Shown: positions 2,606 to 50,962, numbered from the stretch's first letter. The stretch is 64,000 nt of DNA from Azolla caroliniana (GCA_043228905.1 JBHGNT010000017.1:1984001-2048000), one strand, 5' to 3'. A program made the numbers and translations. The notes: generated by a model not told the origin, from the sequence alone.

Positions 2606-2652
<47 letters not shown>

Positions 2653-2766: not shown

Positions 2767-4103
2767 CCGAAATACCTCACACATGACAAGGGCGATGGTT
2801 TCCTCGCTAGTGATGGCCTTAGTACACGGCACAAAATGTGCCATCTTTGTATATCGATCGACGATGGTTAAGATAGCATCGAACCCCTTCGAGACCGGCA
2901 GATCTGTGTTAAAATCAAGACAAATAGACTGTCACGGCTTACTTGGAATCGGTAAGGGTTCCAACAAGCCATATGGATGGTGTCGTGGCATCTTTGCTCG
3001 GTAACAAGCATCACAGGTCCGAACATAGTCGTCGACAAAACGGCGCATGTGGGGCCACCAAAAAAATCGTTGCACTAGCTCCAACGTCTTAGTACTAGCA
3101 AAATGTCCCACCGTATGGGTGTCGTGACAATTCTGGACGATTTGAAGGCGAAAGGAGCAATCGTGGACATATACGCGCTTTTTAAAGAATAACAAACCAT
3201 CATGATATTCGAATTGTCGGTAGTCAATACCTGGTTGTTGAGACCGAGAACAGGATGCCCGAGAAGTATCAATGTGCGCCAGGATGTCTTGAGCAAAACT
3301 ATCCGTCTTCAAGTTTGCACGTATGTCATCGGTAATCCGTGAATCCATCGGGGTGTGAAAAATCCACGTCGTGTGCAGTCGTGTTGGTCCCAAGATTACT
3401 TGCTTTTGATTATCAAATGCTGGATCACCAGGACGAGGTGCAAGATATGAATGTCGTGATAGTGCATCTGCTTTTCCTTGTTGCTTCCCCAGTCAATATG
3501 TGATTTTGAAGTCGAAACGCGTGAGGAATTGCGCCCACCGAGCTTGCCATCGATTTAGTACGCGAGCGTTCTGGAAATAAGCAAGATTTTTATGATCACT
3601 AAAGACAATGACCTGATGTGGAGAGCCCTCTAAGAAATGCCGCCATTGCACAAATTAATTCACGATGGCTAATAATTCCTTGTCATGTATTTCGTAGTTG
3701 ATTTCCGCGACATCGAATTTGAGCGAATGGAAAGCCACAGGATGCAACTCTTCTTTATCTCCTTGTTGAGAAAGGATGCTACCGAGGGCGAAATCTAATG
3801 CGTCGGCCTCCATGATGAATGGTTTGCTTGTATCCGCATGAGCTAGAATCGGTGCTGATGTAAAGGCTTTCTTAAGATGCCGAAAAGCCATATCTGCTTC
3901 AATGGACCAAAGAAATGCTTGTCCCTTCTTCGTAAGTTGTGTGAGAGGTAAAATAATCTTCGAGTAATCCTGTATAAACTTACGGTAGAAGTTAGCAAAA
4001 CCTAGAAAACATTGTACATCTCGTACCGACCGTGGAATTTGCCACTCTAGTACAGTTTGGACTTTAGCTGGATCCATGGCGATGCCCTTTGAGGAGATGA
4101 CGT
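2767..4103 (-). pseudogene. Tcn1-like pol fragment: end of RT, RNase H and integrase N-terminus
   Basis: The real part of ORF 3655-4731 (MDPAKVQTV...FLGFANFYRKFI...NYEIHDKELLAIV) and ORF 2932-3393 (HDT..GHF..WWPHMRRFVDDYVRTCDAC). Contains stops and frameshifts. Confidence 0.85.
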
Positions 4104-4348
4104 TGTCGTGAAGAAAACCGTCCCCTGGCGCAATCGGTGAATAGCGCACATGAACCGGCCCTTCACGTGTGCACGCTCTTAGTGTATATAATATAAGAAT
4201 TAGGTACAGAGAGAGATCCAGGGTAGTTAGATTCGGTAGGTAGGAAGTAAATGAGGGAGACGGCTCCCTTCTTGACGCTATAAAGGAGAGGGAGACGCAG
4301 GGAGAAGGGATCGCGCATTGAGGAGGACAAAGTGTTGTCGGACCGGAA

Positions 4349-5123
4349 ACGGATCGAGGCCGGTGAGTCCAGTGCCCGGGATAACCACAAGAAGGGCGGA
4401 TACCGGTTGGGCACGGAGATCGAAAGGACCACGGACCTGCGAAAGGTCCTGGAAGAACGAATCCTCGACAGCAAGGTGGAACTGTCATTGCGAGAGGTGC
4501 TCGGGATAGCCAAGAAGGAATTCCACGACTCCATCGTGGACTTGGTGAAGAGGAAGAGGCTGTCGACAGAGGCAGAACCGGAAAGGCTGGTGGAAGTGCG
4601 GACGACGCACATAGAGGACATGGCGCTGGAAGACGAGTGGGCAGAGAGCCACTATTCGAGGCCACACTGGGCCCGAGTGACCACGGAAACCCCGGTGAAG
4701 ATCGGAGATGTTCAGGAACCGGTGGTGGCACTGGTGGACCACGGTTCGGAAATAAACCTGATGTCCATGGACTTCTACAAAAAGGGGAAATGGCCGATCA
4801 ACACTAAGCACGGGTGGAAGATACGGGCAGCGACGCGAGCCACCGAGGAACTACACGGGGCCTGCCCAAACGTGCGAGTCAAGATCGGCGACGTCGAAAT
4901 AGACCAACACTTCTTTGTGCAGGAAACGTCCTCGCACCCGGTCATTCTAGGGGAACCGTACATTACGGCGGCACGAATGGAGACCAAGGTGCTGGACAAC
5001 AGGTCGGCTTACGCGAGGGTCAAAAGTCAGGACGGGCGTCATTCGGTCCAGTTCCTGACGGTGCGACCGAACCACGAGCGAAACCGCGAGTCCCTCGGTG
5101 GCGAGAACCAAGAGGAGTTTTAG
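4349..5123 (+). CDS. gag C-terminal region plus aspartic protease (ORF1 remnant)
   Basis: VVALVDHGSEINLMS...VILGEPY protease signature; collinear with the minus-strand ORF 35819-36622. Confidence 0.8.
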
Positions 5124-8100
5124 AGAGGGCTGCCAAGGCGTGGGGCCGCGACAGTCCGGACACTCCGGGAAAACCCCACAAATGTACGATAGAAGCGAAA
5201 CCGAAGAAACCTTGTACCATAAGTAGGAAGTTTTGTTTCTCCGACAACGGAGGGTGTACGATAGTTGGCGTCGTAGGCCGAGAAAAGACAAGAACGGAAA
5301 AGCGACTTCGGGCGTGCGGAGTTCTCGGGCCCAGCGAGGAAATCAACAGAGCCGTGGAGGCGGTCTCCTTCGACGATACCTTCGGAATACTACGAGAGGT
5401 GGTCGGAGAGGGCCTTAAAGAAGACCGGATGATACCGGTTTGTTCAGAAGAGATGTATGAAGTCATCGCGGATTTCAGTCGAGGGCTCGAGTCGGATCGA
5501 ACGGCCCGGGTTAACACGAAGTACAAAACTGTGGAGCGGAAGGTAAGGCTAGTCGCGGCACCCTTACCGGAGGGCAGCGAGTTACGAATCAAGGGGGTCG
5601 CGTCGGACCCCAGTTTACGAGATCCGGCCTGCATAGGGCACGCCTTCACCGACAGAACGCTACGGGAGCTCAAGGTCGGTGGGGGCGGGTTCCTACTGCC
5701 GGTGGAAGAAGACCGGTTTCGGAGAATGCTCGGAAGGCACGGGAAAGCCTTCGCATTCTCGCCGGGAGAGATCGGGTGCGTAGACCCGACAATCGTGAAG
5801 CCGATGGTGATATTCACGGTACTGCATGTGCCGTGGAATCTCAAACCAATTTCGGTACCGAGAGCTCACATCCCGGAGCTGATGGAGCTATTAAGGCAGA
5901 AAGTTGATATGGGCATCCTCGAACTGTCGAGTGCCCCATACTCGAACCGGTGGTTTACTGTACCGAAGAAGAACGGGGCATTGCGCTTCATTCAAGACCT
6001 GCAACCGGTCAACAGAGTGACCATTCGGAACGCAGGAATCGGACCAACGATAGACGAGTTCGCGGAGGCCTTTGCCGGAAGGTCGATCTACTCGGTCGGT
6101 GATCTGTACTCGGGATACGATCAGTTCCAGCTAGCCGTAGAAAGCAGAGACATTACGACGATGCGGACTCCTCTCGGCCTAGTGCGGATGTGTACCCTGC
6201 CACAGGGAGGGACGAACTCGGTGGCCCACATGGTGAATGCGATGAACAAGGTGCTGAGGGATTGTATCCCGGACATCACCATGCCATTCTTGGATGACAT
6301 CCCAATCAAGGGATGTCCGGTGGAGGAAAAGGACGAAACGATCGAACCGGACGGATGCCGGAAATTCGTGGCGACACACATTGACGACTGCGAGAGGGTG
6401 CTGCAGAGGCTAGAGGACGCGAGGCTCACCTTCTCCGGGGAAAAATCGGCCTTCGGGCAATCAGAGATCATGGTCGTCGGACATCTATGCGGACCGTATG
6501 ACCGGAAACCGTCTCCAGCAAAGGTGGAAGCCATCTCCGCAATGAAGCCCGACTGTAACTCGGTCACGGAAGTACGGAGGTTCTTGGGAGCATGCGCGTT
6601 CTACCACATATGGATCCCACATTACGCCCACGTTGCCAAGCCGCTGTACGGGTTGCTAAAAAAGGGGCGAAAATTCGAGTGGCGAGACAAGCATACGGAG
6701 ACAGTGTGAAAGATGAAGGAGGCTCTTGCTGCGGCTCCGACACTCCAGAAGGCTGTCTACGAGAAGGGCACTCTCGTCTACATAACGGTAGATACGAGTC
6801 CAACCGGGATCAGATGGGTCGTCAACCAAGAAGACGAGGATGACATCCGGTTCCCAATCTGGTTCGGCGCGAAGGTCCTCAACGAGCGACAGCGAGGATA
6901 CGCCCAGGTTAAATGCGAACTCTGGGGTATCGTTTCGGCGGTAAAGGCCGATAAAGACTATCTGATTGGGACAGAGGTGATTATCGAGACGGATTGCCTG
7001 CCGATCCTCGGCATGGTTTCCGGATGCGCAACCCCGGACCTGGCGATGCTCAGGTGGATAGCGTACATCAAGTCCCTGGATCCGGAAATACGACACATTT
7101 CGGGGAAAGACAATGCCATGGCCGACATGCTTTCGAGGACGCGATTCAACGACGAGGGCAGCATGGTTTCGGAGGACGAGGAAGTCGGCGTAGACTTCTT
7201 CGAGGCGGCTTACGTAACAACCGAAGGGGGGAGCACCCCGGCGCTTAACGATTTTAACAAGAGCAAGTACGACGGGGAGTGGCTGCAGATTGGGGGATTC
7301 TTAAGGACAATGATGCCGGACGCATCGTGGACAAGGGACGAGGCCAACCAGATCCGGAAGAAAGCGTACCGGTTCTTTCTCTGGGGCAGATACTTGTGGA
7401 AGCACCCGAAGAAGAGGAACGACATCCCGCTCCGAGTAGTGGCGACGAAGGAGGAACAAGAGGAATTGCTGAAGGCCTATCACGACAGCCCCTGGGCTGG
7501 GCACCGTGGGACGTGGGCCACGTTCGAGAAGCTGAAGGGGAAGTACTGGTGGCCGGGACTGTACCGGGACGTGCATCGGTTCGTGACAACTTGTGAGAGC
7601 TGTCAAGTGCACTCCATAGTCCGACATCGGGACGAGCTTCACCCCACATACCCTCCGGCCATCCACTTCAAATGGATGGTAGATTTGGTGACGATGCAGA
7701 TGGGCGTAGGACAGATGCGATATCTGGTGCTGGCCCAGGAGGACCTAACGAACCAGGTGGAAGGCTGAGCCCTGCAAAACAAAACGACCGCGGCCGTGTG
7801 TCGGTTCCTGATCGAGGACGTGATATGCCGGTACGGGTGCGTCGGAAAGATCGTGGCTGACTGCGGGGAGTTGGACACCGAAGAGGCCGAGGAGCTGTTC
7901 AACCGGTTGGGGGTCAAGCTCTCGCTCACCACAGCGTACAATCCGGAGGCAAACGGGAAGGTAGAGCGCGGGCACGGGCCAATCGTCAAAGCGCTAGTCC
8001 GGGCATGCGGAGTTGCGGAGACCAGGTCGGGATCTGGCCACGGCTGTTACCTTACGCCTTGTGGGCGGACCGGACAACGCACAGTTCGGTAACCGGGTTC

Positions 8101-8630
8101 ATGCCGTCAGAGCTCATGTTCGGACAGAAGCCGATCATGCCGATGGAACGGATGATCTCCTCTTGGGCGACAGTAGACTGGAGTAACAAAATGAGTCGGG
8201 AAGAACTGCTAGCGGCGCGTATACGGTAGCTCGAGCGGAGGCGAGAGGACGTGGAACGAGCGGCGGAGAGACTTCGGGCGGCGAGGATGAAGAACAAAGC
8301 CCGGTTCGACCGGACGCACCGGCTCCGACCAAAGAAAATCGAGGAAGGCGACTGGGTGCTAGTCTACGACAGCAGCCTCGACAACCAGCACCGAGCAACA
8401 CGGAAGTTCGCGAAGCGGTGGTTCGGGTCTTACGTGGTAACAAGCGCCAATGACAACGGGACGTATCACCTGGCGGAACTCGACGGTACAAGGATGGCGA
8501 TGCCGGTAGCAGGGAAGCGAGTGAAAGCGTTCAAGAAATGCCACGACGACGAACCGGATCTAAGAGGCCTGGACAACGAAGATGAGCAGTCCGAAACGGA
8601 GGGTGAACCGATGGACGAAGAAACGGAACC
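5120..8630 (+). pseudogene. pol (RT-RNase H-integrase) in the -1 frame relative to ORF1, with a few premature stops and a frameshift
   Basis: RT (DLYSGYDQF, TLPQGGTNS, PFLDD), RH (VDTSPTG, ETDCLP, NAMADMLS), IN (GHRGTWAT..C..C, TTAYNPEANGKVERG, KRWFGSY). Stops at 6709, 7768 and 8229. Confidence 0.9.
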
Positions 8631-8700
8631 CAGACCGGTTTTCTCCAACCAGAAGCCAATTTTGGCGCATACCGGTGGATGCGCGGTCAGGTGGGGCGGA

Positions 8701-9349
8701 TGTCGTGAAGAAAACCGTGCCCTGGCGCAATCGGTGAATAGCGCACATGAACCGGCCCTTCACGTGTGCGCGCTCTTAGTGTATATAATATAAGAATTAG
8801 GTACAGAGAGAGATCCGGGGTAGTTAGATTCGGTAGGTAGGAAGTAAATGAGGGAGACGGCTCCCTTCTTGACGCTATAAAGGAGAGGGAGACGCAGGGA
8901 GAAGGGATCGCGCATTGAGGAGGACGAAGTGTTGTCGGACCGGAACCGAACGCTTCTCCTCTATCTGTTCTCTGTTGCTCTTCTCTGCAAGTCTCGGGAG
9001 GCTCGCGCTGCTTCGAGGAACGCCCGTGTGCTTCCGGCAGCACCTCCATCCTATCCCCATTTCGTGCGCAGACGAATAGGCATCGGCATCTGTTCGCCGG
9101 CCTGTTCGGTTGTAGCTGCTCGCGCGTTCTGCTGTGTACTTGTTATTCGTTAATATACAAACACTTGTCTCTCCCTGTCTCTGTGTCCATTCGTGTCTTC
9201 TGTGTTGACGGCCCACGCCCCTGTGCTTCTTTGCTCATACGTGACCGGGCGTCTCTCTCCTTCTCTTTCCCCTTCTATCACCTGCTCTTCGGTTCAAGAC
9301 CTCGGTGGTCCCGCCTCGTTTCTCCACGCACGCGCGTAACAACGCGACA
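8701..9349 (+). repeat. 3' LTR of element 4104-9349
   Basis: TGTCGTG...ACGCGACA termini, preceded by the PPT. Confidence 0.9.
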
Positions 9350-9353
9350 ACGT

Positions 9354-10434: not shown

Positions 10435-10439
10435 AAAAC

Positions 10440-10788: not shown

Positions 10789-10841
<53 letters not shown>

Positions 10842-15635: not shown

Positions 15636-15671
<36 letters not shown>

Positions 15672-19921: not shown

Positions 19922-20188
19922 TTACAGATGTTGTTTGTTCTTTTGCACTGACGACCCTTTCCCCAACACATAGCGCATATGTAAGAAGTCTCAGCCAATT
20001 TGTGACTCGTCTATCGCATGCTCGTATTATCGTTTTGTTGACAATCGGCTCGTGCCCTCGTTCGACCTTCCCGTTCGCCAAATCACATCCTAATCGTAAG
20101 GGAGAGCTTGGCCCCTAGTCGGTCGAATAGTTCATTGGCTTCTTGTGCATCAAGCTCCCCTTGGCTACGATCTTCCACACGCACCCGT
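19922..20188 (-). pseudogene. Integrase fragment of an old, decayed TGTCGT-clade gypsy element (continues at 40244-41860)
   Basis: ANGKVERGHEPIV..WLRLLTYAL. Joining across the nested insertions restores EDVNCWYGCVWKIVA (compare EDVICRYGCVGKIVA at about 7815-7860). Confidence 0.75.
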
Positions 20189-20270
20189 TGTCGTGAAAAT
20201 CCGTCACTATGTGTAGGTCGTGAGACGGAACTGTCGGGGTTCTGGACTAGAAGAATTTAGTGCAACACGT

Positions 20271-22085: not shown

Positions 22086-22490
22086 GGTAGTGTTGAGATA
22101 TCAAGCTCAACTAGTTTAATCTAGTTAGACAACACATGTAACTTAGTAGTTACCTAGATCGAATCTAGTTAACGTGTTGACCCTAAGCCTTTAAATAGGA
22201 CCTTGTACTTAAGTGGGATATTCTAGATCCTCCACTCCTTAGTACATTTAATGTAGGACTTACACATAAGTACCTATGTTCTACCCACACATGTGGACCT
22301 TTGCACATGGGTTGTATATATACCTCATTGTGGGTATTTTTGTATGTTGATGACACTTTTCAATATAGTCAATCATCCCCCATTTATCTTCGTGTTCATA
22401 AGTGTAACTTCCTCTCTCTCTCTCTCTCTCTCTCTCTTCCTCTCACACACTCTCATGTGCATATCATACTAATCTTCCGCTACTTAACGT

Positions 22491-23382
22491 TGTCGTGCCT
22501 TACGGCTCCGGATCGTTGCGTGAGTCGGGTGGGAACCGCTGGGGTTTTGGACTAGGAGGAAAGAAAATTCTAAGGCAATTAAGAATATGAAATATATTGT
22601 AAGAAAGGAAGATATGAAAAACTCGTGAATCCCACGAGTATAGAGTATTAGTGAGTACTCAAATTAAGAGAGAAAAATAGTTAGCAAACTCGTGGATCCC
22701 ACGATTATATTTTATTAATCAACCCTTGTAAAATAATCAACAACTCTATATATCTTTTTCTCTTCCTTATATAGTGTTGGAAGAGTCTAATTTTATCACA
22801 TGCAAGCATCATGCTTTTCCTATTTTTAGTTTTCATGCACATTGCATGTGCATGATTAGCTTTCTATCTCATCTTTTCTTTTAACTCGAGTGTCTATGCA
22901 TGAATAACTTTTTGTACCATGCATGTCTAGAAATTTTACATGGGATAAAGTTTAGTATAACTTTAAAATTCATAATACGCTAGTATAATGATAAGGCTTT
23001 ACATTATTAACATGGAGGTGCAAGGTTCGATTCTTGCCCTATGCATGTAATATATAATTTTATACTTTCTTCTATTTACAAATATGTCTCTTCATCTGGT
23101 GAGGGACTCTCACTGGCCTTCTTTATCCGGCTCTTGCCGGTTCTGCTTCATCCGGTTCTCGCCGGTTTTCTTTATCCGGTTCTTACCGAATCCTTCTTAC
23201 CGGTCCTCTTCGTCCATTTCTCACCAACTCTCACCGGCCTTCTTCATCCGGCTCTTGTCAGTCTCCTTACCGGTTTCAGTCCTCACCGGTTCTTCCTTCC
23301 GGTTCTCACTGGGTACTCCATATCCTATTCGGAGAAACCAAAAATGTAATTTTTCACGTAGTGTGCGAATTACACTACGACA
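22491..23382 (-). mobile_element. Solo LTR (TGTCGT clade, divergent family) inserted in a copia LTR
   Basis: TGTCGTG...TACGACA with TSD ACGT; empty sites at 32039-32042 and 42757-42760. Orientation inferred from a U5 motif shared with the other clade LTRs. Confidence 0.88.
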
Positions 23383-23612
23383 ACGTAACCATATAATTAG
23401 TCTCTAATTAACCCTAGTTAATTACCTAATTACTTAACATGGTATCAGAGCGCGTGGTTTAGGAAATCCACTAAGCCCACCACTTATTCGTGATTGTGTG
23501 TTCGAGACGTCGACGACAAATCTCGGCTATTCGCTATCCGCTACCGTAGTGCTACGAAGGACGTGTACGTGACCAAGAGAAGAAAAACAAAACGGAAGAC
23601 ACAACAATTAAC

Positions 23613-26275: not shown

Positions 26276-26432
26276 CAAGGATCCAAGCCTTCGTCACAAG
26301 CTTGAGGGGAAGAATAAGCCGCAGAGAGCCGCGCAACGAAGCCTCGAAGAGCCACGCCACGAAGCCGTGGAGAGTTGCGCAATGAAGCCGCGAAGAGCTG
26401 TGCAACAAAGCTGCGGAGAGCCGCGAAGACGT

Positions 26433-29400
26433 TGTCGTGAAGATTTCGGGCCATAGTGAGAAACTGGGGGATATCAGAAGAATCGACGGAGTGCACCATG
26501 TGCACTTACCCTTGTAAAACGTGTGAATAGTAGGATTCAAGTCGAGACAGAGAATCCCATGTAAGTTGGGATTTATCCCACATTGTAACGCATCTCTCTC
26601 TTTGTTCTATAAAATGAAGGGATAGTCCCTTGTAGAGGGGTTGCCCATTTTGAGTTAGGAGGGTATACCATTTAGGGTTTGGTAGAGTTCTTCCTCTTCA
26701 TCTTATTCTTGTTCCCTTAGGGTTTGTACTTGGGTCTTCGCCCTATTTCGTTTAGGGTTTCATCCTCTCTTCTCCTTCTTCTGCCCCTCCGTGTTTGTTT
26801 AGGGTTTTGGCCCAGTGAAGAGCTTGTATGTTCTGTGGGGGTGGGTTTACTTCTACTCGGCCTCTTGTGCAAGACCCCGCTCGGCGCGACGAGCCCGAGA
26901 GCTCCGCCAACGGCGGCTTGGTGGCAGACTGTTGTTGTAACGTAACCTACCTTGGTCCGGCTCGAAGCCGGGGTTGTATCTTCCCCTTAATATATATATA
27001 TATTCATGTCTGATTGTGCATAATGGTGTCTCTGATGGTGTCGGGCGCATAGCTCCCCTCCTTTGTTTCCTGTACATAAGAATCGGTGTTGCGCACACAC
27101 TCTCCCTCTCCTTTGTCTCTCTCTCTCCTCTCGTGTTCGGTTGCAACCGGGTTGTGTCTGGTGTCGGTTTTCTTGGCCTCCCTCTTCTCCCTCATTTGAG
27201 ACCCTTGTGATCCCGCCCCTTCTACACGCACGCGCATAATAACGCGACATATTTGGTGAACCCGACGTGAAGGGCGGCACGGGAGAATGGAGGTGGAGGA
27301 AGACGACTTCGCGCAACTTTTTGTCGAAGCGGTGAGGGAGTTTGGACGAGCAACAACAAGAGGAGAGACAGCGCAGCAAGTGGTTGAGCGAGTGGTCGAA
27401 AGAGTCGGTCGTTTCAATGGGGACAAAGTCCCATTCTACTTGGAAGCCTACAACACGGAAATGGAGGAGCGAGACGTAGACGAGGCGTTGAGGTTGGAGT
27501 TCTTCTGCTGGGTAGTAGTCGTCTGTATGCACGCGGAAGTGAAGGAGCTCCGAGAAGCTCATAGTTCGTGGGAGGCCTTCGAAGAGGCGTTCCTACAGGC
27601 ATATGGGGGACGGCGGAAGAGCCAGGGACGACGCGACTTCGACCAGTGGTTTGCATCGGTGAAGACCCACCAGGGCGCAACGAAGGCGTTCCGAGAGTTC
27701 GAGCGACGGCTTGCTCGGCTCCCGGAGCAGGAACAAGGTTTGGTGGGGGCGGACAAAGTCTTGTTGTTCGTTAAGTCGATCAACCAAGCGGAATGGGAGG
27801 CCATCGGGGTTCAGCTCAAAGACGAGGATGGAGCGAATGGCCTTACCGAGGACTGGTCGAAGGTCGGAAGGGTATGCCAACGGCTAGATGATGAGCGAGC
27901 CGAAACGTCTAGGAGGAAGGTGCGCGACGGCGCGCCATCACAGCAGGAAGAGGCCGAACGACAAAGAGAGTCGGCAAGGCTTGGCTTCGCGGCCAGGATT
28001 GCAGAGGCGTACACAGCTCACGAGGCAATGCTCGAGGAAGAGGGAAGATCGAGGCCGCAAGCCGGCGCCGAGGAGACGAACTTGCCCCACGAGAAGGCAG
28101 AAGATCAGTACCACAGTACCAGGCGAGAGGGTGCGAAACAAAACACCCTCTCGACTTGTGGAGATAGAACGGCCGAGGACAAGGTCGAGATACCGATCGC
28201 AGAATCGGAACATTGGGACCGGCGGTTTCGGGCGCGTCAACCCGAGGCTCCGGACATTGGAGAAGCAAGCCTAGGCGAGGCTTGCGTGATCGGTAAGAAG
28301 ACGACCACCGAACAGGAGGAGCCGGTGGCTACGGACAAGGGCGTAAATAGGACGGGCGATTCTACGCGTCTTCCCACACTTGCTCCTGAGACGATGGCAG
28401 TCGGGCCCGAGTGCCCACGTGAGTCCCAAGAGGAGGAAGGTGGCGGTGAGAGACCGAGAATCACCGGCGAGACGATACGGGGAAGGAACGGACAAGAGCC
28501 CTCGGGACCGATTCCGGAGAACTCGGCATTCGGGCCCTTACGCCCATGTGAGACCGAAGAGATGGATGACGGTATCGAGGAGTCCTGGCATGATGCCAAC
28601 GAAGAAGGATGGGAGGTGGCCCGCGAGAAGGTCGACCAAGAAACGACCCGACCGGGGACCGAACAACGCGACACTCTGATTCAGTTGGAGCGCGATCCGG
28701 TCGTGGATTCTCCGACCGGGGCCAGAATCGGCATGAGGGTGCCGATACGAGAGAGGGTGCGGAACGAGCCGCCCTCTTTTACATGGGGAGAAAGACCAAT
28801 CGGGCAAAGGTCGGGAATTGGGAAGGAGATGATCGAGGGTACAAAACGAGTTTGGCAGGATCGGCATCGGAGTTCTAACTCCGGACATTAGAGAATCAAG
28901 CCCATGCGGGGTTTGATCGATCATAGAGCGGATGTTATCCACCAACACCACTAAAAGGGTCGGTGGCCCTGGATGAGTCGGCGGGAGTCGTTACGAAATC
29001 GGTGTCCCCACATCTTGACCGGAGACTTTGGCAGTTCAGTCGGCGTGGCAACGTGAGACCGAAAGAGATGGAAGATGGAGGCGGGAACGCAACAAGGAGA
29101 GTGACAACGAGTTCGGGAGAAGTACAAAGGACGGATGCGGAGAACGAAGACCGGTCCTATGGGTCACCTCACACCGGATCTAGAGACTTCGGTGGTCAGC
29201 ATCGGATCTGACGTAAGACCAAGATACTAACAGTGGTGGCAAGAGAACAGGACCCGGCAATCCAGAGAATGACAGACAAACCCAGATGAGAACCGAGCGG
29301 AGCGGACTTCTGGATAACCATTCCGGAAGGGAGGAAGAGAGCAGGCCTACGAAGAGGCCGGGAACACGGTACGTCGGTACCACGGGAGAGGGTGTGGAGC

Positions 29401-31539
29401 GAGCCACCCTCTCGACATGTGGAGAGAGACGACCCGGGATAAGGGTCTGAGATATGAAGAGCCCGAGGAGGATCCTTCACACCGGTTCTAGAGACTTCGG
29501 CGGTCGGCGTCGAATCCGACGTAAGACCAAGATACTAACGGTGGCGGCGAGGGGATGAAGGCAACCGAAGGAGGAAAGGGCGGTCTATGGAGATCCTCAC
29601 ACCGATCCGGCGATCGGCTCGAGTGCCGACGTGAGTCCTATAGGAGAGATCGGTGGCGGCAGGTGAACGTGACCAGTTGATGAGGCCGACGCGGAGGTCG
29701 GGGAAAACGGCGAGCGGTGTTGCCACGACCTTAGCCACCGGTTCTAGACACTCCGGCAGCCAGCAACGAGAGCCGGCGTGAGACCTAGAGATGGAAGAAT
29801 GGTGGTGGCGGCAAGGCGGGCAACCGAGACTGCAAACGGGGAAGGTCCCACGAAGATCCTCACACCGATCCGGCGGTTGGCCCGTGTGCCCACGTGAGTC
29901 CTATAGGAGAGATCGATGGTGGCAGGAGAACGTGATCGGACGACGAAAAATAGAGCGAAAGGAGGTATAAGGCCGGTGAGGCGGCCACGAACCGGATACG
30001 GACCCAACCGGCAGAGTCCGCAAGACAAAGATCAGATGCGTTTGGTACGAGAGTCGGTGACCCAACAAAACGGAGGCTTGAGAACGATCCTTCACACCTG
30101 CCGAAGACCCCGGCTGTTCGGCCAACGTGGCAACGTGCCACCAAGGGTAATGGAAGGTGGCGGCAAGGGGACAAGGGCGGCAACAGTAGAGGCATCGACC
30201 AGCCAAGGCCTTACGTGGAAGGAGGCCATGCGGGCCAGGACACGGCAAGGGTGATCTCCCGGTGAGCTGCCATGGGCACCCGGTTAAGGAGCAGTGTGTT
30301 GAGCCAAAAAGGGGCACACCCGGAAGCGGAACGGAAGACGTGCGTGTGGCCGTCCAGGGCCAAAGCGAAGCACGAGTACGGGACGACGTTCGGCACAGGC
30401 AGTGCCGAACAAGGAAAGGAGAAGGTGCGGCACACGGAGGTGCTAGAACGAGAACACGGGCATGCGGTCGAAAGAAGGACCAACAACGAGGCCTGCGTAC
30501 TACGAGATCGCGGTGGACGACCTATGTCGAACGAGCCTACGAAGAGGCAAGCGCGAAGGATAAACCGGAGCAGACGGTTCAAACCAGCAACGGTCGACGC
30601 GGCGAGCCGGGATGCAGGTCACGGAGGACCGGTTTCTGACCGGCCCAAATCTTTCACCTTTCGCCAGACTCAGCACGTACCGATGGACGTGCGGTTTGGT
30701 GGGGGCGGATGTCGTGAAGATTCCGGGCCATAGTGAGAAACCGGGGGATATCAGAAGAATCGGCAGAGTGCACCATGTGCACTTACCCTTGTAAAACGTG
30801 TGAATAGTAGGATTCAAGTCGAGACAAAGAATCCCATGTAAGTTGGGATTTATCCCACATTGTAACGCATCCCTCTCCTTGTTCTATAAAACAAAGGGAT
30901 GGTCCCTTGTAGAGGGGTTGCCCATTTTGAGTTAGGAGGGTATACCACTTAGGTCTAAGGTTTGGTAGAGTTCTTCCTCTTCATCTTATTCTTGTTCCCT
31001 TAGGGTTTGTACTTGGGTCTTCGCCCTATTTCGTTTAGGGTTTCATCCTCTCTTCTCCTTCTTTTGCCCCTCCATGTTTGTTTAGGGTTTTGGCCCAATG
31101 AAGAGCTTGTATGTTCTGTGGGGGTTTACTTCTACTCGGCCTCTTGTGCAAGACCCCGCTCGGTGCGACGAGCCCGAGAGCTCCCCCGACGGCGGCTTGA
31201 TGGCAGACTGTTGTTGTAACGTAACCTACCTTGGTCTGGCTCGAAGCCGGGGTTGTATCTTCCCCTTAATATATATATATATATATATATTCGTGTCTGT
31301 TTGTGCATAATGGTGTCTCTGATGGTGTCGAGTGCATAGCTCCCCTCCGTTGTTTCCTATACATAAGAGTCGGTGTTGCACGCACACTCTCCCTCTCCTT
31401 TGTCTCTCTCTCTCTCCCTCTCGTGTTCGGTTGCAACCGGGTTGTGTCCGGTGTCAGTTTTCTTGGCCTCCCTCTTCTCCCTCATCCGAGACCCCTGTGG
31501 TCCCGCCCCTTCTACACGCACACGCGTAATAACACGACA
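26433..31539 (+). mobile_element. Complete non-autonomous gag-only LTR element (TR-GAG-like) of the TGTCGT clade
   Basis: 5' LTR 26433-27249, PBS TGGTGAACCCGACGTGA 27254-27270 (complementary to the plant tRNA-Trp 3' end), gag-like ORF, repeat-rich non-coding region, PPT, 3' LTR 30710-31539. Flanks are ACGT / ACAC. Confidence 0.9.
27287..28891 (+). CDS. Gag-like protein (534 aa) with a long acidic, low-complexity C-terminal extension
   Basis: The first ~200 aa align by eye to gag of 20189-40243 (VGRFNGDKV / AGRFGGKNI; DKVLLFVK / DKVLLFLK; NGLTEDW / NGLVADW). ATG lies just after the PBS. No CCHC or protease motif. Confidence 0.75.
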   Translation: MEVEEDDFAQLFVEAVREFGRATTRGETAQQVVERVVERVGRFNGDKVPFYLEAYNTEMEERDVDEALRLEFFCWVVVVCMHAEVKELREAHSSWEAFEEAFLQAYGGRRKSQGRRDFDQWFASVKTHQGATKAFREFERRLARLPEQEQGLVGADKVLLFVKSINQAEWEAIGVQLKDEDGANGLTEDWSKVGRVCQRLDDERAETSRRKVRDGAPSQQEEAERQRESARLGFAARIAEAYTAHEAMLEEEGRSRPQAGAEETNLPHEKAEDQYHSTRREGAKQNTLSTCGDRTAEDKVEIPIAESEHWDRRFRARQPEAPDIGEASLGEACVIGKKTTTEQEEPVATDKGVNRTGDSTRLPTLAPETMAVGPECPRESQEEEGGGERPRITGETIRGRNGQEPSGPIPENSAFGPLRPCETEEMDDGIEESWHDANEEGWEVAREKVDQETTRPGTEQRDTLIQLERDPVVDSPTGARIGMRVPIRERVRNEPPSFTWGERPIGQRSGIGKEMIEGTKRVWQDRHRSSNSGH

Positions 31540-32100
31540 ACACGAAGAAAGTCGCGCAACACCGCGAAGAAAGCCACAAGCCGCACCGATGTCGACGAAG
31601 CCGAAGGAAGCTAAATCGGACGTTGGACGCCTCACACTTGAGCTTGAGGGGGCATGTTGAGATATCAAGCTCAACTAGTTTAATCTAGTTAGACAACACA
31701 TGTAACTTAGTAGTTACCTAGATCGAATCTAGTTAATGTGTTGACCTTAAGCCTTTAAATAGGACCTTGTACTTAAGTGGGATATTCTAGATCCTCCACT
31801 CCTTAGTACATTTAATGTAGGACTTACACATAAGTACCTATGTTCTACCCACACATGTGCACCTTTGCACATGGGTTGTATATATACCTCATTGTGGGTA
31901 TTTTTGTATGTTGATGACACTTTTCAATATAGTCAATCATCCCCCATTTATCTTCGTGTTCATAAGTGTAACTTCCTCTCTCTCTCTCTTCCTCTCACAC
32001 ACTCTCACGTGCATATCATACTAATCTTCCGCTGCTTAACGTAACCATATAATTAGTCTCTAATTAACCCTAGTTAATTACCTAATTACTTAACAGGTAG

Positions 32101-32949
32101 TAATCGTGGCCAATTCCCCATCTTGTCGTCGCAAGCCTTTGCTAGAGCTTTTACAATCGGACTATGTCCTCGTTCCACCTTCCCATTTGCGTCCGGGTTG
32201 TATGCCATGGTGAGCGATAGTTCGACGCCTATTCTTGAAAAGAATTCTTTAGCTTCATTCACATCTAATTCTCCCCTATCAACTACTATTTTGCCAACAC
32301 ATCCGTATCGACAAATAACATCTTCAAGGAGAAACTTACAAACTGCCGAAGTTGTTTTATTCCTTAGCGCTCATCCTTCTACTTGGTTGGTGAGATCCTC
32401 TCTTGCTAGCACGAGATACTTCATTTGCCCCAATCCCATCGGCATAACCACTATGTCTACCAACCACTTATAGTGCATTGATAATGGATATGTCGGATGA
32501 AGTTCATCCCTATGTTGAATATTCGAGTATAATTGGCATTGTTCACATGTTTCAACATAGCTTGCTACATCTTTGTAAACACCCGGCCACCAATACTTCT
32601 CCTTGAGCTTTGCAAATGTTGCCCATATACCTCAATGACCTGCCCACACACTATCATGAAATTCAGCAATTAGTGTTTGACAGGAACTACACGCTCTCTA
32701 TGTGCAATGCTCGGCCACAACCGAGCTTAGAATCATACACAGAAAACGGGAATGAATACACGCGACACAAAGGAGAGAAGAGTACACAGGATGTTTACGT
32801 GGAAAGCCCAAACTAGGGAAAAACCACGACAGCCCATAGACTGCAAACTATCACTATATCAGAATGTACAATAGTAGAGCATTGAGGCAACGACCTCGAG
32901 CTTGCTATCTTCACCACAGGCGGCGGTTACAACAGAGGCAACGACCTCT

Positions 32950-32986
<37 letters not shown>

Positions 32987-35820
32987 CATTGTTACGCGCT
33001 CTAATCTTGCGCCAACAAGAATGACAACAACACTCTCTCAATAAGTTTGCCCTAAGTCATATTTATACTAATATGACTTTTCGGCTATTTACAAATATAG
33101 CCCCGATGGACTCTCAGAAGACATATTTACGAATATGTCCCTTCATCCAGTGAGCGCTCCTCACCGGGCCTGCATCATCCGGAACTTGCCGGGCACTCGT
33201 CATCCGGTTCTCACCGGGTCTTCACCATCCGGCTCTTGCCGAGTACTCGTCATCCAGTTCTCACTGGGTCTTCCGTTGTCGGGTACTTGTCATCCGGTTC
33301 TCACCGGGTCTTCACCATCCGGCTCTTGCCGGGTACTCGTCATCCGGTTCTCACCGGGTCTTCCGTTGCCGAGTACTTGTCATCCGGTTCTCACCGAGTC
33401 TTCCGTAGCCGGGTCTCCCACATCCGGTTTCGGCCTCGGCCGAGTTTGCTCATCAGTACTGTTCTTCTCACTTCCCATCCGGAGGGACATGTTTCCTAAC
33501 AGTGTTTGTTGATCTTGTTTCTTGCGCACCACTAGAAGTGGAGTTCCATTCTTCTTCTTTGGAAACTTCCATAGATGTCCTTCTTTGAGGAAGAACTTGT
33601 AGGCCTTCTTCCTAATTCAGTAGAAGTCTTCCTTTGACTATGATTCATCTTTTGTAAGAGAGTTTAAGTATTTGCCAATTTCGATGAATTCACCCTCATA
33701 ATCTTCTACTTTGAACACTGCTAGCACCCGAGCACAAGAAATCGTAAAGAAGTTTAGGCCAACATCCTCTTCATCGGAGTGCAAATATTCTTCACCCTCA
33801 TACCTCGCCCTTGACAACATATCGGCCACCACATTATGCTTTCCATTTATATGCCGAATCTCAGGGTTGAGGGACTTGATATAGGCAATCCATCGCAGCA
33901 TAGTAATATCCGGTGTAGCACAACCGGATATCATTCCAAGAATAGGCAGACAATCAGTCTCAATTATGACCTCTGTTCCGATAAGGTAGTCACGATCGGT
34001 TTTAACCGCGGATACTATTCCCCATAGCTCTCTCTTTACTTGGGCATACTTCCTTTGTCTTTCGGTTAACACCTTTGCACCGAATCAGATTGCATACCGA
34101 TTCTTTTCTTTGTCTTCTTGGTTTATCACCCATCCAATTCCGGTTGGGCTTGTATCCACCGTTACATATATCGGGGTACCTTCGGTGTAGTCGGCTTTTC
34201 GCAGTGCCGAAGCTTCCAATAATAGTTTCTTTAGCTTTTGAACCGCGTAGGTATGCTCATCTTCCCATTCGAACTTCTTCCTTTTCTTTAGTAATCCATA
34301 CAATGGTTTAGCGACATGAGCATAATGTGGAATCCATATGTGATAGAATGCACATGCTCCCAAGAATCTTCGCACCTTTGTTTGAGACACACATTCTTCT
34401 TTCATCTCTTGAATAGCGTTCACCTTGGATGGAGATGGCTTCCGGCCATAAGACCCACATAAATGTCCTACTACCAATATTTTTTGTTGACCGAATGCAG
34501 ACTTCTCTCCCGAAAACGTGAGATTTGCATCCTCAAGCTTTTGCAACACCTTCTCGATATCCTTTATATGATCGATGATGAATCTTCGGCAACCATCTTC
34601 ATCTTTCGATTCATCCTTTTCTTCCACCAAGCATCCTTTGATTGGAATATCATCTAAGAAGGGCATTGTGATATCAGGGATACAATCCCTCAACACTTTG
34701 TTCATGGCATTCACCATGTGGGCTACGAAATTTGTCGCACCTTGGGGTAAGGTGCACATCCTTACCAACCCGATCAACGTCCTCATTGTCGTTATGTCTC
34801 TACTATCGACGGCCAAATGAAACTGATCATAGCCCGAGTAGAGATCACCAATGGAATAGATCGATCTTCCCGCGAAGGCTTCGGCAAATTCATCCACGCT
34901 TGGACCAATTCCGGTATTTCGGATCGTCACCTTGTTGATGGGTTGGAGATCTTGTATAAAGCGTAAGGTCCCGTTCTTCTTCAACACCGTAAACCATCTA
35001 TTAGAGTAGGGAGCATTGGATGGCTCAAGAATTCCCATCCTAACCTTTTCCTTTAGAAGCTCAATCATCTTTGGAATGTGAGCTCTTGGAACCGGTATCG
35101 GCTTGAGGTTCCAAGGTACATGCGGCACCGTAAAAATCACCATCGGCTCTATTATCTTTGGGTCGGCGCATCCGATCTCTTGTGGAGAGAAGGCGAAGGC
35201 TTTCCCATGTCTCTCAAGCATCCCGCGAAACACTCTCTCCTCTTCAGGGAGAAGGAAATCTTCCCTTCCAACTTGTAGCTTCCCTTTTGTCTCTTTGGTG
35301 AAGACATTCATGACCTATTGCCTTTGGATCCCTTAAGCTCGGATCATTAGCAACTTCCTTCATCTTCTGCCAGCTATCTTCCGGTAGCGGAACCGCAACT
35401 GGCTTGATCTTCTTATCCACCGTTTTATATTTTGTGTTGACTTCAGCTTCCTCCATCAAGATGTCTCGATGATATTCATCGATGATAGTGTACACGTTGA
35501 CGGAGTTAACCAAAATCACATTTTGATTGTGAGGGTAGCTCAAGTCCACGACTTCCTCGATTTCGCCGATGATGTCATTAAATGAGGCTTCCTCTAGAAT
35601 ATGAGACACGAATTCTTCTTCTTCGATTATGCTTTCTTCTTTCAGCATCTTCTCGAAGTCTTGTATCTTACGCTTGTCCTTCTTGTTGAGTAGTGTTAGT
35701 TTACATGCGCCACTAGGTGTCACACATGTTGCTTCTCCTTGCAATCCACTAATTTCGCTTCCTTGTGGGGACTTATGATTGCTCGAACTATTCGTGCCCC
35801 ACGCTTCAATAGTCCGCTCT
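32101..35820 (-). pseudogene. pol (RT-RH-IN) of element 20189-40243, frameshifted and interrupted by a solo LTR
   Basis: TKYKTVDKKIKPVAVPLP; DLYSGYDQF; TLPQGATN; PFLDD; VDTSPTGIGW; ETDCLP; AYNPDANGKVERG. Confidence 0.9.
32678..33501 (-). mobile_element. Solo LTR of the copia family at 10440-15940
   Basis: Reverse complement of the 10440/15197 LTRs (TGTTAGG...CCTGTCA); 5-bp TSD GTGTT (32673-32677 / 33502-33506). Confidence 0.92.
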
Positions 35821-37963
35821 AAAAATCCGAGGATTCGCCTCCAAGGCTATCTCGGTTCCTTTCGTGATTAGCCCGCACAGTAAGGAATTGAACAGATCTT
35901 TGATTGTCAAGGCTCTTGACTCGCGCGAAGGCCACTCTATTATCGAACACCTTAGTCTCCATCCGGGACGATGTGATATATGGTTGTCCTAGGATGACGG
36001 GATGTGAAGCCGAGTCTTGCACAAAGAAGTGTTGATCCATCTCCACAGCTCCAATTGTGACTTTAACATTGGGGCAAGCTCCGTACAAGTCTTCTGTGGC
36101 CTTCGTTGCCACTCGTATCTTCCATCCGTGGTTTGTATTGATCGTCCATCTTCCTTTCTTGTAGAATTCGTTCGACATGAGGTTGATCTCCAAACCATGG
36201 TCAATCAAGGCTACCACGATCTCCTTCTTCTCTTTGATCTTCACCGGCGTCTCTGTTGTCGCTCTTGCCCAGTGAGGCCGAGAGTAATGGTTGTCCGCCA
36301 TCACTTCTTCTTCCTCCTCCTCTTCGGATCTTGCCATGGTTATGACACTTGTTTTCACCTCTTCTTCATCCGATTGTTGCCGCTTCCGATTAATGAAGTC
36401 CGCAATAGTATCGTGGAACTCCTTCTTAGCAATCCCAAATAGCTCTCTCAAAGTAAGGTCAACATGACTATCTAAAACCTTCTCCTCAAGGACCTTCCGC
36501 AAGTTGGTTGTTTGTTCTATGTCCGACCTTAGCTTGTAAGTCGGTGCCACTCGTTCCTTTCCTTTCTTCACAGATTCATCGACTTCCATCCGACAAGGTT
36601 GGCTCGATCCATCGGGCTTCATGCTTGTTTCTCCTATCTCTTTTCGTGGCGTAGGTTGGGCTTGTCCTTCTTTCCATGCATTCCTCGTATTATGACGCTT
36701 TGATGTGCCATCTTCTTCACCGGTTCTTTTCCTCTTCTCTTCAACAAGAGTTTCGTCAACTGGATCCGACCATCCGGTAACTTGTCACACATTCTGATCA
36801 ACATGTTTTAGATCCTCCAAATCTATTTTTCCTTTCTTTTCACACTCGAATACTGTTGGCCAAAACCCAACTCCCAACTTGATCATCTTTAGATTCTCTC
36901 TTCCGACTCTTATTCCCGTCGATGCGGCGTAGTGCATGGCTTCCACATGCCTAGCATCTTCCTCTTCCACGATCTTTTTCAGCCCGCCTCTTCTGAAGTT
37001 CACTCGTAGTGGCTTTCGGGTCTCACTTGAGTGGATCATGTTGCCGTCCAAATAGACGACATTCTTGCGAATTGCGTCTTGCAAATCAGTACACTCCCTT
37101 CGCGAGTGCTCAAAGCTGTCGCACCACACACATCTATACGCTTCTTTTCCCTTCGGCCCGCATCGACCTAAGTTGGCCAGCAATACCGCTTCAAACTTCT
37201 TGGAGAGCTCTTCGATTATAGATTCCTCCATCGCTTTCTTGTCGAAATTGTTGATCGGCTTGTTAGACTCGATCGTCACAGGTACCTTCCTACTCCACGA
37301 TTGTGGATTCTCCATATCAGTTTCCTCTTGCCATTGTCGACGCTTATCAAGACGACTACAAGCCTTCTTCACCGCCGCCCAGTCCGCTACCAAGCCATTT
37401 GGTTGTGTTTCATCCTCCAAAAAGTTACCCAATTCACGCCAATCTTTCGCATCCACTGCCTTAAGGAATAGTAGGACTTTATCTCCATCGAGAACTCGTT
37501 GATCAACACTCGGAAGTCGGTTATACTTCTGGTCGAATTCGGCATAAACTCCAGACGCACACATATTCTTCCCTTTCTTCTCAATCCAAGACATTAGCGT
37601 ATGTCGAGTCATCCGTGATGCGTCTTCAAGCATGTATTCAGCGAGAAGCGCCTTTTCGAACTCCACCTAAGTTGCATGCTCGTTTTGGATCTCCATGACG
37701 CGCTCGCGGATCCCTGGTTCCACCACATGTTTGAAGCTAGAAATTTGTTTGAGATCATTGACATCCCTTTGTTGCATCTCGTTCTGATAGGTAGCAAGAA
37801 AATCCGTGATGTTCTTGCCACCAAATCGTCCAGCTATCTCGACCGTACGATCAACAGCTTTGTCGATTAAAGCTTCTCGATCTCTCACCTTCAGCATGTA
37901 TTCCACTACGAACACCATGCCTTTCGTTAATTCCTCTCCTTGAGTTCTGCTTGTGGAAGCCAT
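35819..37963 (-). pseudogene. gag-protease ORF1 of element 20189-40243 with two in-frame stops
   Basis: ORFs 37667-37999, 36785-37666 and 35819-36622 share one frame. Zinc knuckle CVWCDSFEHSRREC; protease ALIDHGLEINL..VILGQPY. Confidence 0.88.
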
Positions 37964-37995
37964 TGTTGCACTTGATATCCTCCCTACCGCCTCTT

Positions 37996-38012
37996 TCACG
38001 TCGGGTTCACCA
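37996..38012 (-). promoter_or_regulatory. Primer-binding site, tRNA-Trp
   Basis: Plus strand reads TCACGTCGGGTTCACCA, the 3' end of plant cytosolic tRNA-Trp including CCA. Identical to the PBS at 27254-27270. Confidence 0.8.
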
Positions 38013-38020
38013 CTTTATTA

Positions 38021-40243
38021 TGTCGTGAAAATCCGTCACTATGTGCGGATTGTGAGACGGAACCGTCGGGGTTCTGGACTAGAAGGATTTAGTGCAACAC
38101 GTACAACACAAGCAAGTTTTAAGCATAAGACAAGTGGGAGAGACAAATCATAGTTTATTGCAAAAGAAAATCGATTCTTTATAATTTCAGAATCGTGTTA
38201 GAATGGGTTGGGTATGGAAATGAGAGATTAATTTTTCAAAGAAAGGAGCAAACAACCATGCAAGGAGTGGTCCTATATGAATACAAGAGATAATTTTTGA
38301 CAAGAAAGATCCAGTAAACAAAGCTAGGAGTTTGATATCAATATGTGAGATAATTTGTTTCTCGAATCCGAGAGGGAAGAAGAAGGAAGAAAAAAAAACC
38401 AGTGGGAAAAAATGGGACATATATCAAGCTCTTTGTTGATCCTCCTCCCCAATGTTACTTTGCATGCCCACTTTTAGTTGCATGGCCTCTACTTTTAGTT
38501 GCATGCTTCCATTTTTAGATGCATGCCTTTTACTTTTAGTTGCATGGCCTTGGGTTTTGGTTGCATGTGACTGTTCGTATAATTCGGCCAAATAACACAA
38601 TCATCCATAAAGTTTAGCCCGTGCGCAATCTGTAGATGCGTCGCAACCAAACCGTAGACATGTCCGCGCGCAAAAGTCCCGATCGCGCAATATACGCATC
38701 CACGCGCGCGCGTCCAACCTGCACCGTGTACGCATCCGCACACACGTGTGTCCTGACCGCGCCGTGTACGCATCCGCGCACTCGTTTGCATACACGCGTC
38801 CGTCTGAAACATCCACGCGGCTGCACCGTGTACGCATCCGCGCACACACGCGTCCCGATCGTGCCGTGTACGCATCTGTGCGCGCGTTCGCATACACGCG
38901 TCCGTCTGAAACATCCACGCGGCTGCACCGTGTACGCATCCGCACACACACGCGTCCCGACCGTGCCGTGTACGCATCTGTGCGCGCGTTCGCATACACG
39001 CGTCCGTCTGAAATGTCCACACGGTCGTGCACGCGTATGCCCGAAACTTGCACGCACGCATATGTCCGAAAACGTCAACGCGACCGTGCATACGCACGTA
39101 CGCCCGAAAACGTCCACTCAACCATGCATACGCGCGTACGTCCGAAGCGTCCCGACCGTGTCGTGTGCGCATCTGTGCGCGCGTTCGCATACACGTGTCC
39201 GTCTGAAATGTCCACGCGGTCGTGCACGCGTATGCCCGAAACTTGCACGCACACGTATGTCCGAAAACGTCAACGCGACCGTGCATACGCACGTACGCCT
39301 GAAAACGTCCACTCAACCGTGCATACGCGCGTACGCCCGAAGCGTCAAGACGGGCCGTGTACGCATCCGCACACACGCGCATCCCGACCGTGCCGTGTAC
39401 GCATCTGTGCGCGCATTCGCATACACGCGTCCATTTGAAATGTCCACGCGGTCGTGCACGTGTATGCCCGAAACTTGCACGCACGCGTATGTCCGAAAAC
39501 GTCAACACGACTGTGCATACGCACGTACGCCCGAAAACGTCCACTCAACCATGCATACGCGCGTACGCCCGAAGCATCAAGACGGGCCGTGTACGCATCC
39601 ACGCGCGCGTGCATCCAACCCGCACCATGTCCGAAAACGTCAACACGACCGTGCATACGCACGTACGCCCGAAAACGTCCACTCAACCGTGCATACGCGC
39701 GTACGCCCGAAGCATCAAGACGGGCCGTGTACGCATCCACGCGCGCGTGCATCCAACCCGCACCATGTATGCATCCGCACACACGCGCGTCCCAACCACG
39801 CCGTGTACGCATCCGTGCGCTCGTCCATGCGGCCACCCGAAAACATCAACGCGACCGTGCATACACTCATACGCCCAAAAACGTCCTCGCAACCGTGCAT
39901 ACGCGCGTTCGACCGAAGCGTGCACACCACACAATGTAGCCTAAGTCACCTTGAACATTCTGTGCTCCACACATTGATTGATTTAATATGTTTTGGTTTC
40001 CCTTATATATCCTGCGTTCCAATGTTGACCTATCTATGTGGGATATCTCATAGTTTTGTATTTTTTTCGTTTACTCTTCAAACTTCTCACTCACATAACT
40101 TGATACATATTTATCCAATTCATGCGTAGTAAAATATATTATGAAGCTCTTGAACACATCTATCTTTCCATATCAATATATTAAGCTAATCATAAATAAT
40201 TATTTTACTAGTTTTCATATCGTGTGTGAAAAACCACACGACA
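38021..40243 (-). repeat. 5' LTR (about 2.2 kb) of element 20189-40243
   Basis: TGTCGTG...CACGACA termini; 38021-38640 matches 20189-21540 once the solo LTR is removed. Confidence 0.88.
38690..39930. repeat. CpG-rich complex tandem array inside the LTR
   Basis: Recurrent CCGTGTACGCATC, CGCATACACGCGTCCG and CCGAAAACGTC modules in irregular higher-order units. Confidence 0.9.
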
Positions 40244-40249
40244 CCGTAC

Positions 40250-50928: not shown

Positions 50929-50962
<34 letters not shown>

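What the first reader, a model, noticed from the sequence alone, without database searches (positions are those of the whole stretch)
2767..40247. A gypsy clade that integrates at CpG: 4-bp CG-centred target sites in 6 of 6 insertions
Seen: every element with TGTCGT...CGACA termini has a 4-bp flank with CG in the middle. The sites are ACGT/ACGT (4104-9349), ACGT/ACGT (20271-20980), ACGT/ACGT (22491-23382), CCGT/CCGT (20189-40243), ACGT/ACAC (26433-31539) and CCGA (right flank at 2767, left end outside the window). Two TSD lengths are confirmed by empty sister sites with a single ACGT (38099-38102; 32039-32042 and 42757-42760). One target lies in an AT-rich LTR with few CpGs. Copia and other insertions in the same nest have ordinary 5-bp TSDs (AAAAC, GGTAG, GTGTT, RAGTG, YGTAC). 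Established: most plant LTR elements make 5-bp TSDs with weak sequence preference. Inference: this integrase, which has no visible chromodomain, reads CpG directly, possibly methyl-CpG. That would steer it into other transposons.
Basis: partly seen in the sequence, partly recalled or inferred. Interest (0 to 1): 0.8.

Follow-up and report, generated by a model that had tools for sequence, protein, structure and literature searches.

The report
Phygy-type retrotransposons insert at CpG
Six jumping-gene insertions in this plant DNA sit on four-base target sites centred on CG; the preference is real but was already reported for the moss Phygy lineage, to which these elements likely belong, and whether their integrase reads methylated CG remains untested.

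Summary
Of five complete elements, four have a perfect 4-bp NCGN duplication and one has ACGT/ACAC; the sixth shows one flank, CCGA. CG stands in 10 of 11 flanks, against a local CG frequency of 1-8%. In three sequencing runs, about 50 junction contigs each give a flank consensus ending ACGT. In related loci, 16 of 19 host junctions are NCGN. The elements are Ty3/gypsy without chromodomain or aRH, in a clade that includes Riccia and Adiantum proteins. This profile is published: REXdb lists Phygy with a 4-bp NCGN duplication in 100% of 186 elements and a tRNA-Trp primer site (PMC6317226). I could not place them on a tree with labelled Phygy sequences, so membership is likely, not shown. Direct CG readout by the integrase is inferred; methyl-CpG readout is untested and not needed, since CG is about threefold denser in this transposon nest than beside it. 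This scan filed another locus of this genome under Phygy before (e1-10618240). What is new is modest: the preference in a host that is probably not a moss, and candidate integrase residues.

The parts
2004..2766 (+). Element A, 3' LTR (763 bp); left end outside the window; internal part resembles non-autonomous element D
   Evidence: PPT before 2004
2767..2770 (.). Right flank of A, CCGA (one side only), inside a chromovirus-like gypsy integrase region on the minus strand
4100..4103 (.). Left target duplication of B, ACGT
4104..9349 (+). Element B: 5' LTR cut after 248 bp and fused to gag; gag end, protease, RT, RNase H, integrase with stops and frameshifts; 3' LTR 8701-9349
9350..9353 (.). 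Right target duplication of B, ACGT; host pol frame in register with one copy
20185..20188 (.). Left target duplication of E, CCGT, in the integrase of an older element of the same clade
20189..40243 (-). Element E, about 8.5 kb without its three nested inserts; 5' LTR 38021-40243 with a tandem array; 3' LTR at the left end, shortened; gag-pol 37666 to about 21626 in pieces
20271..20980 (+). Solo LTR C (710 bp) inside E's LTR, ACGT on both sides
22491..23382 (-). Solo LTR F (892 bp) inside a copia LTR, ACGT on both sides; its ends match the LTR ends of pol-bearing loci L025 and L026
26433..31539 (+). Element D, non-autonomous (gag-like ORF 27260-28891, no pol hit); LTRs 26433-27249 and 30710-31539; flanks ACGT and ACAC
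27254..27270 (+). Primer binding site of D; complement of the CCA-ending small RNA miR894; tRNA-Trp 3' end by recall
37996..38012 (-). Primer binding site of E, same 17 bases
38099..38102 (.). Empty sister site of C, single ACGT
32039..32042 (.). Empty sister site of F, single ACGT
42757..42760 (.). Second empty sister site of F, single ACGT
40244..40247 (.). Right target duplication of E, CCGT
45390..45393 (.). Empty site, single ACGT, for an insertion of this clade seen in locus L037

Best explanation
These are non-chromovirus Ty3/gypsy LTR retrotransposons, likely of the Phygy lineage, that duplicate a 4-bp target with CG at its centre, and their integrase likely selects that CG itself by base contacts while bending the target, probably without needing methylation. 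Shown: the 4-bp NCGN sites, the TGTCG...CGACA ends, the shared primer site, the domain content, and the same preference at many other genomic copies. Inferred: two cuts 4 bp apart put the central dinucleotide at the kink of the target, as in foamy virus integrase; a generic liking for flexible pyrimidine-purine steps does not explain CG alone, so base-specific contacts are needed. Candidates are the acidic residue of the ADRGE motif, at the place of foamy virus Ala188, and the near-invariant L-x-x-Q-H...K-F loop of the C-terminal domain, the loop that holds Arg329 in foamy virus. Nesting in other transposons would follow in part from their higher CG density.
For: Window flanks; frame check. 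Junction contigs in runs X1, X2, X4: 53, 48 and 51 contigs go loose before 38021 with a consensus ending ACGT, and 6 and 5 more before 38020 end ACG. Related loci: 16 of 19 junctions NCGN, 19 of 19 with C at position 2, local CG 3.6%; 2 of the 3 exceptions have CG in empty sister sites. No chromodomain or archaeal RNase H family in 20 of 20 pol proteins. Match to the Phygy row of REXdb: 4 bp NCGN, tRNA-Trp, 7.7-10.0 kb; E nets 8501 bp and L017 spans 7859 bp. CG is 26% of pyrimidine-purine steps in the nest, so 6 of 6 under a generic rule has P about 3e-4. Best structural matches are foamy virus intasomes, then Ty3; foamy virus makes 4-bp duplications, unstacks the central step and contacts bases with Ala188 and Arg329 (PMC4005685). 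Glu or Asp at the Ala188 place in 139 of 139 homologs; Q 100%, H 97%, K 100%, F 100% in the loop among 136.
Against: No labelled Phygy sequence could be compared (the REXdb fasta and element table are too large to read; no Physcomitrium name among the listed hits). The tRNA-Trp identity was not confirmed by a tool. One search gives a consensus only (agreement 0.37-0.39 over 30 letters, 86 rows not shown) for one LTR family, so no per-site fraction. One flank in the window (ACAC) and 3 of 19 in loci lack CG; L017 has unequal flanks (CCGC, ACGT). The homolog sets are redundant, so conservation is overstated, and much of this integrase is conserved anyway. In HIV-1 the Ala188 equivalent acts at positions -3 and 7, not at the centre. 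The model has pTM 0.50 and the candidate loop is partly under pLDDT 50. Nothing here measures methylation.
Confidence: 0.68

Rival explanations
1. The integrase reads methylated CpG, so the element is steered base by base into silenced transposons without a chromodomain.
For: All six window insertions lie in other LTR elements; no chromodomain; CG sites in these elements decay fast, a sign of methylation (18 of 46 in D's LTRs); Phygy nests in Tcn1 in moss and is enriched in predicted centromeres of a liverwort (PMC12885004).
Against: The first 45 kb are almost all transposon, so there is no unmethylated control. CG density alone is 36-85 per kb in 1-44000 and 14-24 per kb in 48001-64000. No methyl-binding family was hit. 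In Drosophila the ZAM integrase binds CGCGCg directly (PMC2527525 abstract), in a genome with next to no CG methylation (recalled).
Confidence: 0.13
2. Same CG-reading mechanism, but the clade is a separate lineage that only resembles Phygy (for example a sister group or an aRH-less relative of TatI, which also has 4-bp duplications and a tRNA-Trp site).
For: Phygy was defined as specific to Physcomitrella; no labelled member was aligned; TatI shares 4 bp and tRNA-Trp.
Against: NCGN is listed for Phygy alone, TatI carries aRH in 100% and none is seen here; Phygy domains are reported in a liverwort; the clade here already spans Riccia and Adiantum at 67-75% RT identity to the reference protein.
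Confidence: 0.12
3. No base readout: the integrase favours any flexible pyrimidine-purine step, or a host CG-binding protein tethers it, and CG is picked up indirectly.
For: Foamy virus integrase favours pyrimidine-purine steps at the centre of a 4-bp site.
Against: CA, TG and TA together outnumber CG about 3 to 1 in the nest yet only 2 of 30 flanks show one of them at the centre (ACAC, ACAG). A tether gives regional bias, not centring to the base (inference).
Confidence: 0.05
4. Artefact: the CG belongs to the element's ends or comes from the CG-rich nest.
For: The LTR ends themselves contain CG and the nest has 6% CG.
Against: Internal LTR junctions show PPT directly before TGTCG and other bases after CGACA; empty sites hold one ACGT; binomial P below 3e-5; same flank in other runs and loci.
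Confidence: 0.02

Closest known systems
Phygy clade, non-chromovirus Ty3/gypsy (REXdb; Neumann et al. 2019, PMC6317226: passages, section 9, supplements 5 and 6 read)
   Same: 4-bp NCGN duplication; tRNA-Trp-type primer site; no chromodomain, no aRH; full length about 8-8.5 kb; nesting into Tcn1-like chromoviruses (PMC6911290, section 7).
   Different: Phygy was described from Physcomitrella only. The host here is not identified and is likely another non-seed plant; non-autonomous gag-only forms and solo LTRs of four LTR types are present. Tree placement with labelled Phygy not done.
Selgy and TatI clades (same paper, supplement 5)
   Same: 4-bp duplications; Selgy lacks extra domains; TatI uses tRNA-Trp.
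   Different: No NCGN preference listed; Selgy uses tRNA-Ala and is about 5 kb; TatI has aRH.
Drosophila ZAM/Tirant subgroup errantiviruses (PMC2527525 abstract; PMC5408687 passages)
   Same: Ty3/gypsy integrase with a CG-rich palindromic target; ZAM integrase binds its target sequence directly in vitro.
   Different: Target is CGCG/CGCGCg, LTR ends AGT...AnT, env-bearing insect lineage; here only the central CG is fixed.
Prototype foamy virus integrase (PMC4005685 abstract and passages; PDB matches)
   Same: 4-bp stagger, bent target with the central step unstacked, same domain layout.
   Different: Prefers any pyrimidine-purine step weakly; has Ala at the place where this clade has Glu or Asp.

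Membership tests
Ty3/gypsy | Domain order gag-PR-RT-RH-INT between LTRs | tested here: met
Phygy | RT-RH-INT falls in the Physcomitrella Phygy clade | not testable with these tools
   REXdb fasta too large to read; tree has no labelled Phygy row; RLG2 transcript cut at 400 letters
Phygy | 4-bp target duplication, NCGN | tested here: met
Phygy | Primer site for tRNA-Trp | tested here: inconclusive
   Same site in 42 of 80 loci, one hit not beside an LTR end; complement of CCA-ending miR894; Trp identity recalled; ARAGORN found no Trp gene among 174 pattern hits
Phygy | No chromodomain, no aRH | tested here: met
   0 of 20 pol proteins hit such a family; mostly 18-58 residues follow the last C-terminal-domain motif
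Phygy | Length 7.7-10.0 kb with coding sequence filling the internal part | tested here: met
   E 8501 bp net; L017 7859 bp with gag-PR and pol filling the internal part; B and D are shorter deletion or non-autonomous forms
Phygy | Host is Physcomitrella | tested here: inconclusive
   No genome held; named relatives are Riccia and Adiantum; earlier notes say likely a fern, unchecked
TatI | Archaeal RNase H domain | tested here: not met
Selgy | tRNA-Ala primer site, about 5 kb | tested here: not met
   full elements about 8 kb; primer site not Ala by recall only
Chromovirus | Chromodomain at the integrase C-terminus | tested here: not met
Methyl-CpG reader | Preference for methylated over unmethylated CG | not testable with these tools
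   no methylome or biochemistry available

The most novel reading that the evidence does not exclude
The integrase of this bryophyte-and-fern gypsy lineage reads 5-methyl-CpG at the centre of its target through its C-terminal Q-H loop and an acidic core residue: a chromodomain-free integrase that finds silenced DNA by reading the methyl mark on the very bases it bends.
Probability: 0.13. Interest if true: 0.75.

Novelty: new member of a known kind. Interest (0 to 1): 0.25.

Why it matters
The preference itself is in print as one sentence and one table cell. This locus suggests it is an old property of a lineage that spans liverworts and ferns, not a moss quirk, and it names residues to test. 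A CG-specific integrase gives a simple route into young, CG-rich transposons and away from CG-poor DNA. If it needed methylation it would be a new way for a retroelement to find heterochromatin, and a useful tool; nothing here shows that.

Tried and rejected
No own genome is held, so no genome-wide logo could be built. LTR-end pattern in viral contigs: 0 hits. Primer-site patterns in prokaryote and viral contigs: 54 and 120 loci, no tRNA-Trp gene among 174. Three protein searches and one cluster look-up gave no Physcomitrium name among the listed rows; the ESM Atlas gave generic RT-RNase H clusters. No RNA holder listed for the LTR. The first read-laying on 7.3 kb was too crowded to show flanks but did show joints across both solo LTRs. 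Paper searches: DUF4100, 0 papers; miR894 with tRNA-Trp, 0; LTR retrotransposon + CpG + insertion preference + integrase, 4 listed, none on this by title; Phygy, 18 listed, 3 opened; fern/non-chromovirus/CG methylation, 6 listed, none opened. In none of the passages read is methyl-CpG readout by Phygy discussed; this covers open-access text only. Rows dropped before the 16-of-19 count: L024 and L031 (PPT or primer side), L026 at 513, L038 twice, L046 at 7143 and L047 at 7049 (inside LTR or coding sequence). One more junction seen later (TCGC in L043) was not added. Rejected: boundary artefact; generic pyrimidine-purine preference; chromodomain targeting.

Full report
Observation. Four of five complete elements have a perfect 4-bp duplication (ACGT three times, CCGT once), the fifth has ACGT left and ACAC right, and the sixth shows only CCGA. 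CG fills positions 2-3 in 10 of 11 flanks. Three empty sister sites hold one ACGT. The host reading frame around 4104-9349 is in register with exactly one ACGT, which fixes the length independently. The imperfect pair is best read as ACGC with one transition on each side (inference); CG sites in that element's LTRs differ at 18 of 46 places. CG is 6.2% of dinucleotides in the nest and 1.1-8.4% in the host stretches; 5 or more of 6 has P of 5e-6 to 2e-5. Five control insertions have 5-bp flanks with other centres.

Anatomy. The first 45 kb are a nest of LTR elements. A (ends at 2766) and B (4104-9349) sit in the pol of a chromovirus-like gypsy on the minus strand (the Tcn1/Tf1 resemblance is judged by eye from recalled motifs). 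E (20189-40243, minus strand) sits in the integrase of an older element of its own clade. Solo LTR C sits in E's LTR; solo LTR F and non-autonomous D sit in a copia that is itself inside E. B and E encode gag with DUF4100, protease, RT, RNase H and integrase, broken by stops and frameshifts. D has only a gag-like ORF, 34% identical over about 200 residues to an intact gag. F has no coding part, but both its ends match the LTR ends of pol-bearing loci L025 and L026, so it belongs to the clade.

Beyond the window. No genome is held. I laid contigs of three public runs from three studies on E's LTR end next to its primer site, where host flanks must go loose. Of 985, 896 and 743 contigs laid, 53, 48 and 51 go loose exactly before 38021, and the consensus ends ACGT in each run; 6 and 5 more go loose one base earlier and end ACG. 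This gives a consensus, not a fraction, for one LTR family, and the runs come from one or two related organisms. In 80 related loci the same primer site occurs in 42, and the same PPT and TGTCG start recur. After dropping seven internal matches, 19 host junctions remained: 16 NCGN, all 19 with C at position 2, against 3.6% CG in those flanks. Two of the three exceptions (ACTT, CCTT) have CG in their empty sister sites, so they likely changed after insertion; the third (ACAG) has no sister site. One locus, L017, has unequal flanks.

Lineage. An RT tree of 53 rows puts B and E in a 47-row clade (support 100/100) on a very long branch, with named Riccia and Adiantum proteins at 67-75% identity to the reference protein P0122 (the six outgroup rows are long-branched and unnamed). 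None of 20 pol proteins hits a chromodomain or archaeal RNase H family. REXdb's Phygy row reads: 186 elements, 4 bp (100%) (NCGN), 7656-9968 bp, tRNA-Trp 81%, no extra domain (PMC6317226 supplement 5), and the text names Phygy as the one exception with an insertion preference for NCGN. E nets 8501 bp and L017 spans 7859 bp. Phygy inserted into Tcn1 was the commonest repeated nested pair in Physcomitrella (PMC6911290 section 7). The primer site is the complement of the CCA-ending small RNA miR894 (PMC5846777); that this is the tRNA-Trp 3' end is recalled, and tool checks found no such gene. The deciding test, a tree with labelled Phygy, could not be run: the REXdb fasta and element table were too large to read and may bear on termini and membership. 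I put membership at about 85%.

Mechanism. Centring to the base points to the integrase, not to a tether (inference). The predicted integrase (pLDDT 71, pTM 0.50) matches foamy virus intasomes best, then Ty3. Foamy virus cuts 4 bp apart, unstacks the two central pairs, favours pyrimidine-purine steps there, and touches bases with Ala188 and with Arg329 in the first loop of the C-terminal domain (PMC4005685). CG is such a step, but only 26% of them in the nest, so flexibility alone does not give this pattern. The clade has Glu (130) or Asp (9) at the Ala188 place in 139 of 139 homologs and a near-invariant L-x-x-Q-H...K-F loop among 136. These are candidates only: the sets are redundant, the loop is poorly predicted, and the HIV-1 equivalent of Ala188 acts outside the centre. 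Direct sequence targeting by a gypsy integrase has a precedent in Drosophila ZAM (PMC2527525 abstract; PMC5408687 passages).

Methylation. Nothing here tests it. All six targets are in transposons, but so is nearly all DNA in this part of the window. CG runs at 36-85 per kb in 1-44000 and 14-24 per kb in 48001-64000, so a methylation-blind CG rule already favours young transposons about threefold. The searches and the passages read showed no test of methylation dependence for Phygy, so the question seems open in open-access print. I give methyl-CpG readout 13%.

Earlier notes. One note on this genome (e1-10618240) also names Phygy as closest; I had reached that reading before and checked the paper myself. 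Other notes call the host a likely fern; I did not verify that.

Verdict. Real, well supported, and largely known. New member of a known kind; interest 0.25.

Noticed in passing
window 20267-20270 and L043:999-1002: Two different LTR families inserted at the same homologous position, about 80 bp into an E-type LTR, although several CGs lie nearby: a possible hot spot beyond the CG rule.
   Followed up: partly
window 4104-4351 and 21580-21630: B has lost most of its 5' LTR, primer site and gag start; E has lost its PPT, integrase tail and about 100 bp of its 3' LTR. Short shared words lie at both joints.
   Followed up: partly
window 38719-39970: E's 5' LTR carries about 1.2 kb of CG-rich tandem repeats (units of 102, 138 and 195-232 bp) that are almost absent from its other LTR.
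   Followed up: no
window 27260-30709, 1-2003; L001:7431-10691: Non-autonomous members keep the primer site, PPT and a gag-like ORF extended by acidic repeats, without pol; in L001 one follows an autonomous element and shares an LTR with it.
   Followed up: partly
window 40250-40700: A solo LTR with a 5-bp CGTAC/TGTAC duplication lies 2 bp from E's right target copy and overlaps it.
   Followed up: no
window 27254-27270: The primer site is the exact complement of the abundant plant small RNA listed as miR894, which could also silence these elements.
   Followed up: partly
window 61648-62318 and 60337-61077: A 147-bp tandem array, and an ORF with a zf-RVT hit (likely a LINE fragment), in the CG-poor part of the window.
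   Followed up: no
L034 minus strand, position 7450: An element of the clade inserted in reverse at a CCGT just 3' of the primer site of another member.
   Followed up: no
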